NCBI GenBank assembly: GCA_964016885.1 | Contig: CAXHJY010001717.1 | Location: 1-42,801 of the forward strand | DNA from: Eledone cirrhosa | Taxonomy: Eukaryota | Length of the DNA: 42,801 bases | Direction of reading: 5' to 3' | Shown: positions 29,904 to 42,700 of the stretch, one piece after another | How the letters are laid out: each line of letters opens with the position of its first letter | How positions within the stretch are numbered: the stretch's first letter is position 1 | Position numbers and translations under genes: made by a program | Notes under the pieces: generated by a model | What the model was told of the DNA's origin: nothing | Database searches by the model: none | Seen by the model: the letters and a program-made list of their open reading frames with translations, nothing else

Positions 29904-30441
29904 GGTAGTTCGATAACTTATCTTTTCAACCAATTTAAGAATGAATTACTTTCATCTTGATTAATACATAGTATATTACAGAGACATGGAAAACTGTGAA
30001 GTTATGTATATGCAAATGTCCACAGATGCAATCTCCCCTCGCCGGTAACTTCTTCAAGTATTATCGTTGCATGACGTCATTTTCAGTTGGTATGATCTAA
30101 TATGTAAGAGTACATAAATACTAATAACTACCTATCGTCAACAAGTAGGGACGACAGCAAATCCTATGAGTATTTTTTTTTATCTATCTCAACGTCATAA
30201 TAGTAACAACACCATGCTGGCTTTAATCGTATATATTAGATGCAGGGAAGCTTCTATGACATCGATAAGACTATATGTTATCTATGACGCAATCACAACT
30301 TTAACATTAATGAATGTGGTTGCCAGAGATTAGATACGTCCGAAAGAAACATTGACATGTAGGCAGTTCAAAGCCAAACACACACACACACACACACACA
30401 CACACACACACATATATATATATATAATAGGAACAAGTAAG

Positions 30442-30536
30442 ACCCCGACGGCTGAGCTCAAGACGTTTCGACGGCTAATTCTGTACTGAATGAAAAATTA
30501 ATTCTGGTATTTAAATAGCCGAACTTATCAAGAGGT
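30442..30536 (-). ncRNA. Type I hammerhead ribozyme, U3-A8 core variant (left arm)
   Basis: Minus strand: ACCTC-TTGATAA-Gtt-CGGCTA...TAGCCG-tC-GAAA-CG...CG-TC-GGGGT. Confidence 0.7.
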
Positions 30537-30641
30537 AATTCCATATATGGTCAAAGAGATAATCACCAGGATTGGTCACATCACAAGTTAGTAGTAAATC
30601 TGTGATGGCAAGTTGGTGGGGGAAGGGGTAGCAAAACCTGC

Positions 30642-31545
30642 TTCAATTACCTTACCGCTACTTACTGCCGCCTTGGACTTCGCAGAAGCACTTGTGCCCA
30701 TCACCGACCAGGAAAGAAAAATCATCCTCCACGCCAGGAAGACAGTCTTACTCTTTGACAACGCCAAATGGATAAAAAGAGCTCCTGACTCACCCTTCGA
30801 CGTCAGCATGGGCGCTACGGATTCGGCGGAGGTCACAGATCTTATAGGATTATTCCTTATAGCCAAACTCACCGATATGTTTCCTGCTTTCGGTGGTGGA
30901 TTGTACCGTGATGATGGGCTCCTTACCCTTAAAGGGTACAACCCCAGTAGTACAGATCGGGTCCGTAAACAATTAATCAGCCTCTTCCGCGACTGGGGAT
31001 TTAAAATAACCATACAAACGTCCCTGACCCAAGTTAATTTCCTGGACGTTACCCTCGATCTCAATAATGACCTGTACTACCCATACAGGAAACCCAATGA
31101 CAACCTGCACTACATCCACCGCCGATCTAACCATCCCAGGAACATCACCAACAACCTGGTCAAAAACATCTCCCTCCGTATATCCCGTTTGTCAGCTAAT
31201 GAACATGCACCTTACTACAACCAGGCCCTCAAGCGGAGTGGTTTCCGGGAGGAAATATCCTACTGTCCAGCTCCCATTAGCGGAACCAGCAGGCGACACC
31301 GCCGCTCACGCAATGTAACATGGTTCAATCCTCCCCACAACGCTGAGGTGACAACTCCCATCGGGAAAATTTTCTTTAGGCTCATTGAAAAATACTTCCC
31401 ACCACAACACCGCTACCACAACATAATTAACAAAAATACCATCAAACTCTCTTACAGCACTACACCTAACTTCGCACAAAACATCGTCTCCTCCAACAAC
31501 AAAAAACTCAACCCCGATGGAAGAAACAACCTAAATAGCAGTGGT
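30642..31545 (+). pseudogene. 5'-truncated PLE reverse transcriptase + thumb, no GIY-YIG domain
   Basis: SIT...FDVSMGATDSAEV...GLYRDDGL...VNFLDVTLDL...PYRKPND...YIHRRSNHP...WFNPP; the frame then runs into non-protein-like sequence. Confidence 0.88.
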
Positions 31546-32221
31546 ATCTTGTATAAGACCTTTTGTTTCGTGGCGGTACCCTTAGAGTTAGCACCAGTAT
31601 TTTTTTGCGGGACCCTGAATTATATTCTCATACTAGTTTACTTTCTTGCACTGGGTGGTTGCTGGCCCTGTGTTTGGGGTAGAAACCTTTATTATTTTCG
31701 TGGTAGTCTCTTTAGTATTCTGGCCCCCCTTCTGTTGACCCGTCACCGTACGATACACGCACTTATACCTCGTATAAGGGTCCCTTTCTTTCCGTCCCAC
31801 CTAGTTTTTTTCTATTATTATCATTTATTTTTTTATTCTACATTATATATATATATATATATTTTTAAAAAATTTATTTATCTATTCTTTTATTCACTTA
31901 TTTGTTTATTTATTTATTTATGTATTTCTTCAGCCTAGCAATAGCGAGAGACTGAAGTCTTAGTAACCAGATTTTGCTTATATTTTTTTCTCTCTCAGTA
32001 CCTTTTACAGTTTTACCTTTCATTGTTCTACTTACCGTTTCGACCTCCTCCCCCTCCTCCTCCCCAGTATCCTCTTTGACCTCACACCCAGCTGTAGCTG
32101 GCACCACCAACGCATGAATGGGTCTACTCCACCCCCTCTCCCCTTTTCTCCTACTGGCAGGTTTTGCTACCCCTTCCCCCACCAACTTTCCATCACAGAT
32201 TTACTACTAACTTGTGATGTG

Positions 32222-32313
32222 ACCAATCCTGGTGATTATCTCTTTGACCATATATGGAATTACCCCTTGATAAGTTCGGCTATTTAAATACCAGAATTAA
32301 TTTTTCATTCAGT
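32222..32313 (+). promoter_or_regulatory. Putative Pol II promoter of the pseudo-LTR (CCAAT, CArG-like, TATA-like, Inr)
   Basis: CCAAT 32223, CCATATATGG 32248-32257, TATTTAAA 32281, TCATTC/TCAGT 32305-32313 (26-30 nt after the TATA). Motif evidence only. Confidence 0.45.
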
Positions 32314-32356
32314 ACAGAATTAGCCGTCGAAACGTCTTGAGCTCAGCCGTCGAGGT
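32262..32356 (+). ncRNA. Type I hammerhead ribozyme, U3-A8 core variant (right arm)
   Basis: ACCCC-TTGATAA-Gtt-CGGCTA-(38 nt)-TAGCCG-tC-GAAA-CG-tcttgagctcagc-CG-TC^GAGGT; predicted cleavage after 32351. Confidence 0.7.
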
Positions 32357-39136: not shown

Positions 39137-39299
39137 TAACGCCTAGGGGTATTACTTCTACTACCACTATGACCACGACCACTAACAACAACAACAACAA
39201 CAATAATAATAATAATAAAAGTGATGTTGATGGTGATGATTAATAGAAAATGCTATTTTCATCATTTCAAAAAAGCAAAACAATTGATACGTTGGATAT

Positions 39300-39475
39300 G
39301 ACTATTGGTCGTTAGCATGCTCAACCAGCCGTGACGCTTAAACCAATCAGCTGTAGTAATTCAGTGAAACTACACACTGATTGGTCGAAATACAGTTTAC
39401 AGGGCTTTGCATTCTGGAGCCACTTTTCTCTGTATAAAATGTATAAAAGGTAGGAAATTTACCCATCTCATTACA
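39300..39475 (+). promoter_or_regulatory. Putative pseudo-LTR promoter (three CCAAT/ATTGG boxes, TATAAAA, Inr-like)
   Basis: ATTGG 39304, CCAAT 39343, ATTGG 39380, TATAAAA 39433 and 39442, TCATT ~39468. Confidence 0.55.
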
Positions 39476-39511
39476 GTTGAAAATTGCAAACTCGATTGTC
39501 ACCACATATCA

Positions 39512-39550
39512 TGAACCTGAAGATTGCGAAAGCATGAAAGTACTTGTTCA
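39512..39550 (+). ncRNA. Minimal type I hammerhead ribozyme (right arm)
   Basis: TGAAC-CTGAAGA-t-TGC-gaaa-GCA-t-GAAA-GTAC-TT^GTTCA; palindromic stem III AGTACT. Confidence 0.87.
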
Positions 39551-39719
39551 ATTAACACTTAGAATTTAATATTCTATCATACTATTTCATTATAATACCA
39601 TTATATATATTTTAAAGGATTGTAAATAAAACGAGTAAATCAGACAAAGTTGGAATTCCTCTTATTAATATAATCTTCTATACACAATCATACACACCCG
39701 TGTATATTTACCTATCTAT

Positions 39720-42700
39720 ATCTATATCTATATATATATATATATATATATATGTGTATATATATATATATATATATATATATATATATATATATATATA
39801 TATATATATATATATGTGTATATATATATATATGTGTATATATATATATGTGTATATATATATATATATGTGTATATATATATATATGTGTATATATATA
39901 TATATATGTGTATATATATATACACACATATATATATATACACATATATATATATATATATATATATGTGTATATATATATATATGTGTATATATATATA
40001 TATATATATATGTGTATATATATATATACATGTATATGTGTATATATATATATACATGTATATGTGTATATATATATATATATGTGTATATATATATATA
40101 TATATATGTGTATATATATATATATGTGTATATATATATATATATGTGTATATATATATATATGTGTATATATATATATATATATATATGTGTATATATA
40201 TATATATATATATATATATATGTGTATATATATATATATATATATATATATATATGTGTATATATATATATATATATATATATATATATGTGTATATATA
40301 TATATATATATATATATATATATATATATACATATATATATATATATATATATATATATATATATATATATATATATATATACATATATACATATATATA
40401 TATATATATATATATATACATATATATATATATATATATATATATATATATATATGTATATATATATATATATATATATATATGTATATATATATATATA
40501 TATATATATATATATATATATATATATATATATATATATATATGTATATATATATATATATATATATATATATATATATATATGTGTATATAAATATATA
40601 TATATATATGTGTATATATATATATGTGTATATATACATATATATATGTGTATATATATATATGTGTATATATATATATATATATATGTGTATATATATA
40701 TATATATGTGTATATATATATATATATATATGTGTATATATATATATATATATATGTGTATATATATATATGTGTATATATATATATATATATGTGTATA
40801 TATATATATATATATATATGTGTATATATATATATATATATATATATATATATATATATGTGTGTATATATATATATATATATATGTGTATATATATATA
40901 TATATATATATATGTGTATATATATATATATATATATGTATATATATATATATATATATATATATATATATATATATATATGTGTATATATATATATATA
41001 TATATATATGTGTATATATATATATATATATATATATATATATATGTGTATATATATATATATATATATATATATATATATATGTGTATATATATATATA
41101 TATATATATATGTGTATATATATATATATATATATATATATATATGTGTATATATATATATATATATATATATATATATATATATTATATGTGTATATTA
41201 TATATATATATATATATATATATATATATATATATATGTATATATATATATATATATATATATATATATATATATATATATGTATATATTATATATATAT
41301 ATATGTATATATATATATATATATATATATGTATATATATATATATATATATGTGTATATATATATATATATATATATATATGTGTATATATATATATAT
41401 ATATATATGTGTATATATATATATATATATATATGTGTATGTGTATATATATATGTGTATATATATATATATATATATATATATATATATGTGTATATAT
41501 ATATGTGTATATATATATATATATGTGTATATATATATATATGTGTATATATATATATATATATGTGTATATATATATATATTATATATGTGTATATATA
41601 TATATATATGTGTATATATATATATATATATATGTATATATATATATATATATATGTGTATATATATATATATATGTATATATATATATATATATATGTG
41701 TATATATATATATATATATATATATATATATATGTGTATATATATATTATATATATATATATATATGTGTATATATATATTGTATATATATATATATATA
41801 TATATATATATATTATATATATATATATATATATAGTATATATATATATATATATATATATATATATATATATATATGTGTATATATATATATATATATA
41901 TATATATATATATATATATATATATATATATATTTATATATATATATATATATATATATATATATATATATATATATATATATATATATATATATATATA
42001 TATATATATATATATATATATATATATATATATATATATATATATATATATATATATATAACATATATATATATATATATATATATATATATATATATAT
42101 ATATATATATATATATATATATATATATATATATATATATATATATATATATATATATATATATATATATATATATATATATATATATATATATATATAT
42201 ATATATAATATATATATATATATATATATATATATATATATATATATATATATATATAATATATATATATATATATATATATATATATATATATATATAT
42301 ATATATATATATATATATATATATATATATATATATATAATATTATATATATATATATATATATATATATATATATATATATATATATATATATATATAT
42401 ATATATATATATATATATATATATATATATATATATATATATATATATATGTGTATATATATATATATATATATATATATATATACACATATATATATAT
42501 ATATATATATATATATATATATATATTATATATATATATATATATATATATATATATATATATATATATATATATATATATATATATATATATATATATA
42601 TATATATATATATATATATATATATATATATATATATATATATATATATATATATATATATATATATAATATATATTATATATATATATATATATATATA

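What the first reader, a model, noticed from the sequence alone, without database searches (positions are those of the whole stretch)
30425..39720. Four consecutive fold-back insertions with the same tails-out geometry in (TA)n: a possible PLE-driven system with non-coding passengers
Seen: a PLE (217-bp arms), an HHR tandem repeat with an inverted last copy, a tRNA-like palindrome (155-bp arms) and a Neptune-like PLE (1537-bp arms). In each the 5' ends point inward, the 3' ends point outward into TA repeats, and one arm is longer. Known: inverted structures, 3' extensions, HHRs and microsatellite bias are PLE hallmarks. Inference: PLE RT/GIY-YIG machinery mobilises both an HHR RNA and a Pol III tRNA-like RNA in trans into the same (TA)n hotspot.
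Basis: partly seen in the sequence, partly recalled or inferred. Interest (0 to 1): 0.78.

Follow-up and report, generated by a model that had tools for sequence, protein, structure and literature searches.

The report
tRNA-headed repeat riding Penelope retrotransposon machinery
This TA-repeat stretch is a pile-up of five mirror-shaped insertions, and one of them belongs to an abundant gene-less, tRNA-headed repeat family that lands with one short and one long end as Penelope retrotransposons do, so it is likely copied by Penelope enzymes rather than by the LINE enzymes that normally move tRNA-derived repeats.

Summary
There are five tails-out insertions, not four: a Hydra-type PLE, two insertions of a hammerhead repeat (retrozyme), a tRNA-headed element and a Neptune-like PLE. 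The geometry is published for PLEs, PLE mobilisation of retrozymes is already proposed, and such stacking is common here (55 of 110 loci).

The interesting part is the tRNA element, a 260-nt tandem unit (1,849 exact tail matches). It shows variable 5' truncation, partial tandems, TA flanks and no poly-A. Of 73 tails-out insertions, 68 pair one short with one long end; none is clearly long+long or short+short. Either arm can be the further-reaching one (26 vs 21 of 75), and 26 of 52 tail-bearing arms stop at the tRNA T-arm. Best reading: PLE enzymes prime from both target ends on a multimeric sense RNA.

No partner PLE shared sequence with it, it has no hammerhead core, and Pol III origin is untested (a T5 run follows the head). 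Ten literature searches showed no such pairing; schistosome Sm-alpha is closest. Earlier notes of this scan report this kind of element here and in other genomes.

The parts
30425..30641 (-). Hydra-type PLE: inverted upstream arm ending at the short 3' end, next to (TA)n/(CA)n
   Evidence: unit positions 3338-3554 of 3635, 98.6%
30639..32449 (+). Hydra-type PLE: 5'-truncated main copy (RT and thumb; about 926 bp deleted at 31544, removing the GIY-YIG region), ending with an about 80-nt tail and TA
   Evidence: full-length relatives L152, L153
33352..34046 (-). Hammerhead repeat (retrozyme) insertion A: about 1.5 units on the minus strand with the short end at left, and a plus-strand stub with the long end at right
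33578..33620 (-). Type I hammerhead motif in insertion A (one G-U in stem I)
   Evidence: motif scan; the MFE fold does not show the hammerhead shape
34051..34600 (-). Retrozyme insertion B: minus-strand arm with the long end at left; hammerhead core at 34357
34602..34900 (+). Retrozyme insertion B: inverted arm with the short end at right; hammerhead at 34648-34688
34909..35119 (-). tRNA-headed element: long arm (unit positions 1-211) with tRNA-like fold at 35044-35116 and tail
35120..35277 (+). tRNA-headed element: short arm (unit positions 1 to about 161) with tRNA-like fold at 35123-35195
35278..36033 (.). (TA)n tract between the tRNA element and the Neptune-like PLE
36034..37565 (-). Neptune-like PLE: inverted upstream arm ending at the short 3' end
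37564..39712 (+). Neptune-like PLE: 5'-truncated main copy, RT plus GIY-YIG frame to 39136, hammerhead motif at 39512-39554, about 45-nt tail
   Evidence: (RVT_1 2.2e-6, GIY-YIG 2.7e-6)
39713..42801 (.). (TA)n tract to the end of the window

Best explanation
The stretch is a (TA)n pile-up of five independent insertions from four repeat families that share one geometry, and the two gene-less families, including a 260-nt tRNA-headed tandem unit, are likely copied in trans by Penelope-type RT/GIY-YIG enzymes. Inferred mechanism: the endonuclease cuts both strands of a TA tract; each end primes reverse transcription at an internal site of a sense RNA, one at the short site (unit 156-174) and one at the long site (unit 207-214); each cDNA stops independently, very often at the folded tRNA T-arm, and the two are joined head to head through a few complementary bases. 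The template is likely a multimer or circle of the unit, because copies run through the 49-nt spacer into the preceding unit. Shown: family size, unit structure, end pairing, truncation sites, TA flanks. Inferred: the enzyme, the RNA, two-ended priming. Not identified: the partner PLE family and the polymerase.
For: End pairing: 68 of 73 tails-out insertions among 88 de-duplicated loci have one short and one long end, 5 have an unclassifiable end, none is long+long, and none is clearly short+short (one, L198, is borderline at 161/180) (rows, long end taken as 200-221). In the two sets not selected on either end, 17 of 19 and 21 of 24 (the sets share a few loci). Positional sample of 25 insertions: 16 tails-out, TA at 34 of 41 outward ends, poly-A at 0 of 41, whole tRNA head in only 7 of 25. 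Partial tandems and a 25-unit array bounded by an inverted short end and a long end, each beside TA. In 75 two-armed insertions the short arm reaches more than 15 nt further 5' in 26 and the long arm in 21. 26 of 52 tail-bearing arms stop at unit 59-72 against 3-4 expected, and raw reads of another study switch strand at the same place (26 reads, 7 starts). Both PLE families show a short and a long end. These features match the PLE signature in PMC8557442 and PMC3846280, and a purified PLE protein cuts and extends both strands and starts at two internal RNA sites (PMC11167929).
Against: No sequence shared with the two neighbouring PLE units beyond shuffle scores, nor with any PLE 3' region in a profile search of 283 loci holding at least 17 endonuclease clusters; published non-autonomous PLEs usually share the partner's 3' end (PMC8557442), and PMC3846280 saw no cross-mobilisation between PLE types. 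No hammerhead core on either strand. Tails are longer than the published 30-40 bp in two families. Inverted arms share 19% of rare variants against 3% for tandem units and 1% between insertions, which two independent primings do not explain without later conversion or a shared template. Retrozyme pairing is less clean: 8 of 11 scored long+short, 3 short+short (doubtful calls on an internal TA-rich tract). All samples except one search were chosen by score. No enzyme assay.
Confidence: 0.72

Rival explanations
1. PLE-driven, but the palindrome arises by self-priming fold-back on an antisense RNA, one arm being a copy of the other (the model offered in PMC3846280).
For: Junctions are often centred on short palindromes and overlap by up to 10 nt in 38 of 75 cases; inverted arms share 19% of rare variants.
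Against: Neither arm is consistently nested in the other (26 vs 21 of 75); single-orientation copies also stop at unit 65-69 (L165, L168, L305, L306), on the side where an enzyme copying the sense RNA would meet the tRNA fold.
Confidence: 0.12
2. An ordinary tRNA SINE moved by a LINE that favours microsatellites, with inversions from twin priming.
For: Intact A and B boxes; some copies begin at the tRNA 5' end (L033, L035, L036, L047, L319); LINEs are present (RT frame in L150); mollusc SINEs with internal T4-T5 runs exist (PMC4758252).
Against: No poly-A or repeat tail (0 of 41); the 3' region is duplicated in the inverted arm, whereas twin priming (recalled, no call) inverts without duplicating; two fixed alternative 3' ends; head incomplete in 18 of 25; partial tandems.
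Confidence: 0.1
3. A palindromic DNA transposon (MITE or fold-back element) that duplicates TA.
For: The best 40 candidates for the whole palindrome are all palindromes; TA flanks.
Against: The two ends are never equal, arm lengths and junctions vary from copy to copy, and single-orientation copies, partial tandems and an array exist.
Confidence: 0.03
4. The inversions are chimeric-read or assembly artefacts.
For: The window lies on a minor contig ending in more than 3 kb of (TA)n; the Neptune arms differ at one base; no read spanned the locus.
Against: Older arms differ by 1.4-2.5% and end at family-specific sites; the same structures occur on chromosome-scale contigs; short reads of another study and contigs of another organism show strand-switch and tandem joints.
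Confidence: 0.02

Closest known systems
Insertion structure of endonuclease-bearing Penelope-like elements (PMC8557442 passages and section 11; PMC3846280 passages; PMC11167929 parts 1-2 of 4)
   Same: 5' truncation, partial tandems, inverted upstream copy, tail on one end only, (TA)n targeting; two internal RT start sites and both-strand extension in vitro.
   Different: The tRNA element has no ORF, no hammerhead core and no detected homology to a PLE; tails here are about 45-80 nt against 30-40.
Metazoan non-LTR retrozymes (PMC7229834 passages; bioRxiv 10.64898/2026.07.22.740005 parts 1-3 of 5)
   Same: Short non-coding tandem units, monomers to long arrays, proposed to use PLE enzymes. The window's hammerhead repeat fits (about 420-430 nt, type I core in 28 of 30 copies).
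   Different: In the text I read, those papers argue from co-occurrence, shared hammerheads and pLTR homology, not from the short+long insertion signature; the tRNA element has a tRNA fold and no hammerhead.
Schistosome Sm-alpha / Sj-alpha SINE-like repeats (passages of the review PMC6765202; primary papers not read)
   Same: Pol III-type promoter inside a tandem repeat unit; multimeric transcripts proposed as templates.
   Different: They carry a hammerhead; the passages name no PLE partner and no inverted short+long geometry.
Non-autonomous Chlamys PLEs such as MRC1 (PMC8557442 passage)
   Same: Gene-less elements forming pLTRs and head-to-tail multimers.
   Different: They generally share 3' sequence with an autonomous family, and no tRNA module is mentioned.
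tRNA-derived SINEs of molluscs (PMC4758252 passages)
   Same: tRNA head with A and B boxes, unrelated body, internal T runs in some.
   Different: The partners identified there are LINEs (CR1, L2); 'Penelope', 'inverted' and 'head-to-head' do not occur in that text.

Membership tests
Hydra-clade PLE (element at 30425-32449) | C-terminal GIY-YIG with CxCX5C linker, DKT, RWK-like motif, CxxC and CxH, no CCHH | tested here: met
   Full-length relatives L152/L153 show DKT, CNCPDRSSC, YIG, CNLC, CKH and an RWR variant (definition). The window copy lacks the endonuclease.
Hydra-clade PLE (element at 30425-32449) | Canonical hammerhead in the pLTR; unit generally under 3 kb | tested here: not met
   No core found by the pattern scan in three copies; unit about 3.6 kb. 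Clade label rests on protein motifs only.
Neptune-clade PLE (element at 36034-39712) | RT with GxKF and DKG, CX2-5CxxC linker, C-terminal GIY-YIG, hammerhead | tested here: met
Neptune-clade PLE (element at 36034-39712) | Phylogenetic placement in Neptune rather than Nematis | not tested
   No reference tree built
Non-LTR retrozyme (33352-34900) | Non-coding tandem units each with a type I hammerhead | tested here: met
   Core in 28 of 30 best copies; three cores in the window; stem I and II fold at 34645-34696 with z only -1.2
Non-LTR retrozyme (33352-34900) | Self-cleavage and circular RNA | not testable with these tools
   Needs RNA data or an assay
Non-LTR retrozyme (tRNA element) | Type I hammerhead in the unit | tested here: not met
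   No CTGANGA or TTGANAA core on either strand of the circularised unit; no ribozyme match in Rfam
Canonical tRNA SINE (tRNA element) | tRNA-derived head with A and B boxes | tested here: met
   isotype not established (39-45 identities to each of 13 ARAGORN-called tRNA-like loci; the anticodon loop varies)
Canonical tRNA SINE (tRNA element) | Copies start at the tRNA head and end in poly-A or a LINE-type tail | tested here: not met
   Whole head in 7 of 25, poly-A in 0 of 41 ends; of 8 arms reaching the head start 7 run on upstream
Canonical tRNA SINE (tRNA element) | Pol III transcription | not testable with these tools
   Boxes intact, but a run of 4 or more T follows the head in 157 of 158 copies
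Non-autonomous PLE (tRNA element) | PLE insertion signature: 5' truncation, partial tandem, inverted copy, one-sided tail, (TA)n | tested here: met
Non-autonomous PLE (tRNA element) | 3' sequence shared with an autonomous PLE | tested here: inconclusive
   None in the sampled families; the genome has 10,596 GIY-YIG candidates, of which 150 were scored and 70 fetched
Non-autonomous PLE (tRNA element) | Target-site duplication pattern | not testable with these tools
   TA flanks hide any duplication; no empty allele found

The most novel reading that the evidence does not exclude
A class of SINE-like elements that ride Penelope rather than LINE machinery without sharing sequence with their partner, in which a tRNA fold replaces the hammerhead: host tRNA-processing enzymes cut multimeric transcripts to unit length (possibly circularised, with the pairing leader and trailer closing the fold), and the folded or modified T-arm blocks the PLE reverse transcriptase, leaving a genome-wide record that PLEs prime from both target ends on a sense RNA.
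Probability: 0.2. Interest if true: 0.8.

Novelty: new variant of a known kind. Interest (0 to 1): 0.55.

Why it matters
SINEs are taken to depend on LINEs. A tRNA-headed family with the PLE insertion signature would add PLEs as a second engine, and such families are easily mislabelled as SINEs or MITEs in PLE-rich animal genomes. More practically, how PLEs make their inverted, one-tailed insertions is still open. Because this passenger is only 260 nt, both ends and the junction of thousands of insertions can be read. The strict short+long pairing, independent truncation of the two arms and the stop at the T-arm give sharp predictions (both-strand priming, sense template) that the published in vitro PLE assay could test directly. 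The two PLEs, the retrozyme and the clustering in TA repeats are ordinary.

Tried and rejected
Partner search: local alignments of the tRNA unit and the retrozyme against the two neighbouring PLE units gave shuffle-level scores, apart from matches in TA-rich tracts; profile searches over all fetched loci hit only family members and older subfamilies. Short look-alikes noticed by eye between the retrozyme tail, the tRNA unit and a second Neptune-like 3' end were not supported by these searches and were dropped. A hammerhead in the tRNA unit: none. tRNA isotype: unresolved, since only 16 genomic tRNA-model hits were returned and most belong to repeats. RNase Z cutting: no peak of 5' ends at unit 76-77. 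A circular monomer as sole template: tandem units inside one insertion share only 3% of rare variants, so not supported, though age would blur this. A second tRNA-bearing family as a control: it has fixed ends and an internal inverted repeat, a contrast but not a clean control. Empty or allelic copy of the locus: none found. Reads could not be placed uniquely on the locus. Expression: no RNA holder listed. Rfam microRNA matches are all below their gathering scores and fall mainly on AT-rich repeats and palindromes. The binomial figure for end pairing counts a few loci twice and is not used. Ages from divergence (median 2.4% for 151 tRNA-unit segments; 2.7% for 53 retrozyme segments; Neptune copies mostly above 99% identical) come from score-selected copies and are lower bounds.
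Full report
Setting. The window is bases 1-42801 of contig C1744 of a 3.0-Gb, 1,796-contig animal assembly. TA-rich repeats and chromosome sizes suggested a cephalopod; that is a guess and comes from no call. The region 30.4-39.7 kb is a run of repeats separated by (TA)n.

Observation. Self-alignment confirms the inverted pairs: 30425-30641 against 32157-32369 (98.6%), hammerhead-repeat copies on both strands between 33352 and 34900, the palindrome 34962-35277 (97.5%) with its left arm extending to 34909, and 36034-37565 against 38136-39667 (one mismatch in 1,532 bp). 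In each, the 3' ends face outward into TA and one arm has a tail. The hammerhead stretch has an internal long-end/TA/long-end junction at 34040-34055 and so reads as two insertions, which makes five.

The two PLEs are ordinary. The right-hand element encodes RT and GIY-YIG. Its family has a 4,202-bp tandem unit, copies mostly above 99% identical, Neptune-type motifs and a hammerhead motif 120 nt before the short end. The left-hand element belongs to a family with a unit of about 3.6 kb carrying the Hydra-clade motifs defined in PMC8557442, though I found no canonical hammerhead in it; the window copy has lost its endonuclease by deletion. Both families show a short and a long 3' end: where the outer end of an inverted arm was in view it was short in L111, L131, L138, L145, L146 and L148, and long in L091, L097, L127 and L141, whose far ends or neighbours could not all be resolved. 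Partial tandems, an inverted upstream copy, a tail at one end and (TA)n bias are described for PLEs (PMC8557442, passages; PMC3846280, passages).

The hammerhead repeat is a non-LTR retrozyme. The search gave 1,206 candidates; 28 of the 30 best copies keep the type I core. Right-hand ends fall at two sites about 65-70 nt apart, beside TA or CT repeats. Of 11 loci with both ends scored, 8 were long+short and 3 short+short; two of those three calls fall on the internal TA-rich tract and the third reaches a neighbouring insertion, so the count is soft. PLE mobilisation of retrozymes is proposed in PMC7229834 (passages) and in bioRxiv 10.64898/2026.07.22.740005 (parts 1-3 of 5; supplements closed).

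The tRNA-headed element. A 22-mer from its tail has 1,849 exact matches, with 0 for the reversed control. Loci show that the unit is 260 nt: a tRNA-like head (unit 5-75), a body to 211 and a 49-nt spacer leading into the next head. The spacer's end pairs with the bases behind the head and lengthens the acceptor stem (z -2.1). A and B boxes are intact, no hammerhead core exists on either strand, and a run of four or more T follows the head in 157 of 158 copies. The isotype is unresolved.

Its insertion pattern is that of a PLE. Among 88 de-duplicated insertions from four searches, 73 are tails-out. Of these, 68 have one short end (mostly 156-174) and one long end (200-221), 5 have an unclassifiable end, and none is long+long; one of the five (L198, 161/180) could be short+short (rows; L032 and L046 are the same structure at two places). 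Two of those searches favoured particular ends; the two that did not gave 17 of 19 and 21 of 24. In a positional sample (the first 30 tail matches on contig C1, 25 insertions), 16 were tails-out, 9 single-orientation, TA lay at 34 of 41 outward ends, poly-A at none, and only 7 kept the whole head. A 25-unit, 6.4-kb array is bounded by the same inverted short end and long end; its units share deletions, so it probably grew locally. Older subfamily copies (74-90% identical) are also folded back. Relatives occur in three other organisms' runs, with tandem and strand-switch joints in one of them.

Mechanistic clues. In 75 two-armed insertions the short arm reaches more than 15 nt further 5' than the long arm in 26, the long arm further in 21, and 28 are within 15 nt (starts printed as 45 are inflated by T-arm self-pairing). 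So neither arm is regularly a copy of the other. Of 52 tail-bearing arms, 26 stop at unit 59-72, the 3' strands of the T and acceptor stems, against 3-4 expected; 1 stops at the head start and 7 run into the preceding unit (values plus 780). Raw reads from another study switch strand at unit 65-69 (26 reads, 7 starts) and show the tandem joint. This is what an RT copying a folded sense RNA from its 3' side would leave. It fits the finding that a purified PLE protein cuts and extends both strands and starts at two internal sites (PMC11167929, parts 1-2 of 4). I infer priming from both target ends on a multimeric sense RNA, with the two cDNAs joined by microhomology. One result needs an extra step: inverted arms share 19% of rare variants, tandem units 3%, unrelated insertions 1%, which points to later conversion between arms or a shared template molecule.

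What is missing. No partner was found. The unit shares nothing above shuffle level with the two neighbouring PLEs, nor with PLE 3' regions in 283 loci, but only 70 of 10,596 GIY-YIG candidates were fetched directly. A monomeric Pol III transcript is an unlikely template: it would tend to end at the T run, 120 nt before the tail, and would lack the upstream spacer. Read-through remains possible, as some mollusc SINEs have internal T runs (PMC4758252, passages).

The cluster is a hotspot, not a unit. 55 of 110 tRNA-family loci have another PLE-type piece within about 1.5 kb, against 0 of 16 other tRNA-model loci. Each insertion leaves TA at both ends, a target for the next.

Literature. Ten searches showed no paper describing a tRNA-derived element with the PLE signature. 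The nearest is schistosome Sm-alpha (review PMC6765202, passages), which has a hammerhead. PMC4209133, PMC13282606 and PMC8782182 were seen as passages only; the octopus annotation paper lists 893 recently active unclassified SINE families, and its library, which I did not open, may hold this family. One supplement of PMC8557442 was searched and has no 'tRNA'. Subscription papers, including the 1994 octopus SINE paper, and Repbase, Dfam and SINEBase were not seen. Earlier notes of this scan describe what is probably the same 260-nt family in this genome and similar elements in other genomes; they are unchecked AI notes and not independent support.

Verdict. A real structure; two ordinary PLEs, a retrozyme of a known kind, and a tRNA-headed non-autonomous element that likely uses PLE enzymes (0.72). 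New variant of a known kind; interest 0.55.

Noticed in passing
L286, L288-L296 (e.g. G000:C2:16468755-16468827): A second, unrelated repeat of about 1.67 kb with fixed ends carries a well-scoring tRNA fold (53-72 bits, varying anticodons) about 310 nt inside one end, a terminal hairpin beside TA and an internal inverted repeat.
   Followed up: partly
L150 4130-8333; L151 4130-7791: The Neptune-like 4,202-bp unit has two overlapping frames (476 and 775 codons, overlap about 90 nt) in both copies examined, suggesting a frameshift or an intron.
   Followed up: no
G000:C1:131458900-131465830 (L330, L333): A 25-unit satellite array of the tRNA unit, units about 9% from the array majority, with PLE-type boundaries: a satellite seeded by such an insertion.
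   Followed up: partly
window 14831-14991: Miniature fold-back of the Hydra-type family: a 43-nt tail arm and a 54-nt short-end arm between TA tracts.
   Followed up: partly
window 32846-33100: Young repeat (97-99% to many loci); its frame resembles the end of a mariner transposase (recalled, not tested).
   Followed up: no
window 33124-33348: Three 27-28 nt stubs, in both orientations, of another abundant family whose ends abut TA; the same family lies beside 19 of 110 tRNA-family loci.
   Followed up: no
window 8584-8778, 9728-9935, 9995-10185, 11052-11266, 22584-22958, 23933-24412: Several other palindromic or inverted short repeat families; not examined for the short+long signature.
   Followed up: no
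window 3281-6179, with fragments at 7723-8000, 16103-16491, 17950-18474: Broken RT-bearing element whose C-terminal motifs resemble restriction-like-endonuclease non-LTR retrotransposons (recalled; no Pfam match).
   Followed up: no
L285, L287 (G000:C1 near 243.65-243.68 Mb): Cluster of tandem tRNA-Thr genes, 5-7 tRNA calls per 3 kb.
   Followed up: no
window 28988-29047 and 30280-30339; 23314-23625: A 60-bp direct repeat 1.3 kb apart (98%) and a 103-bp tandem repeat of three copies.
   Followed up: no
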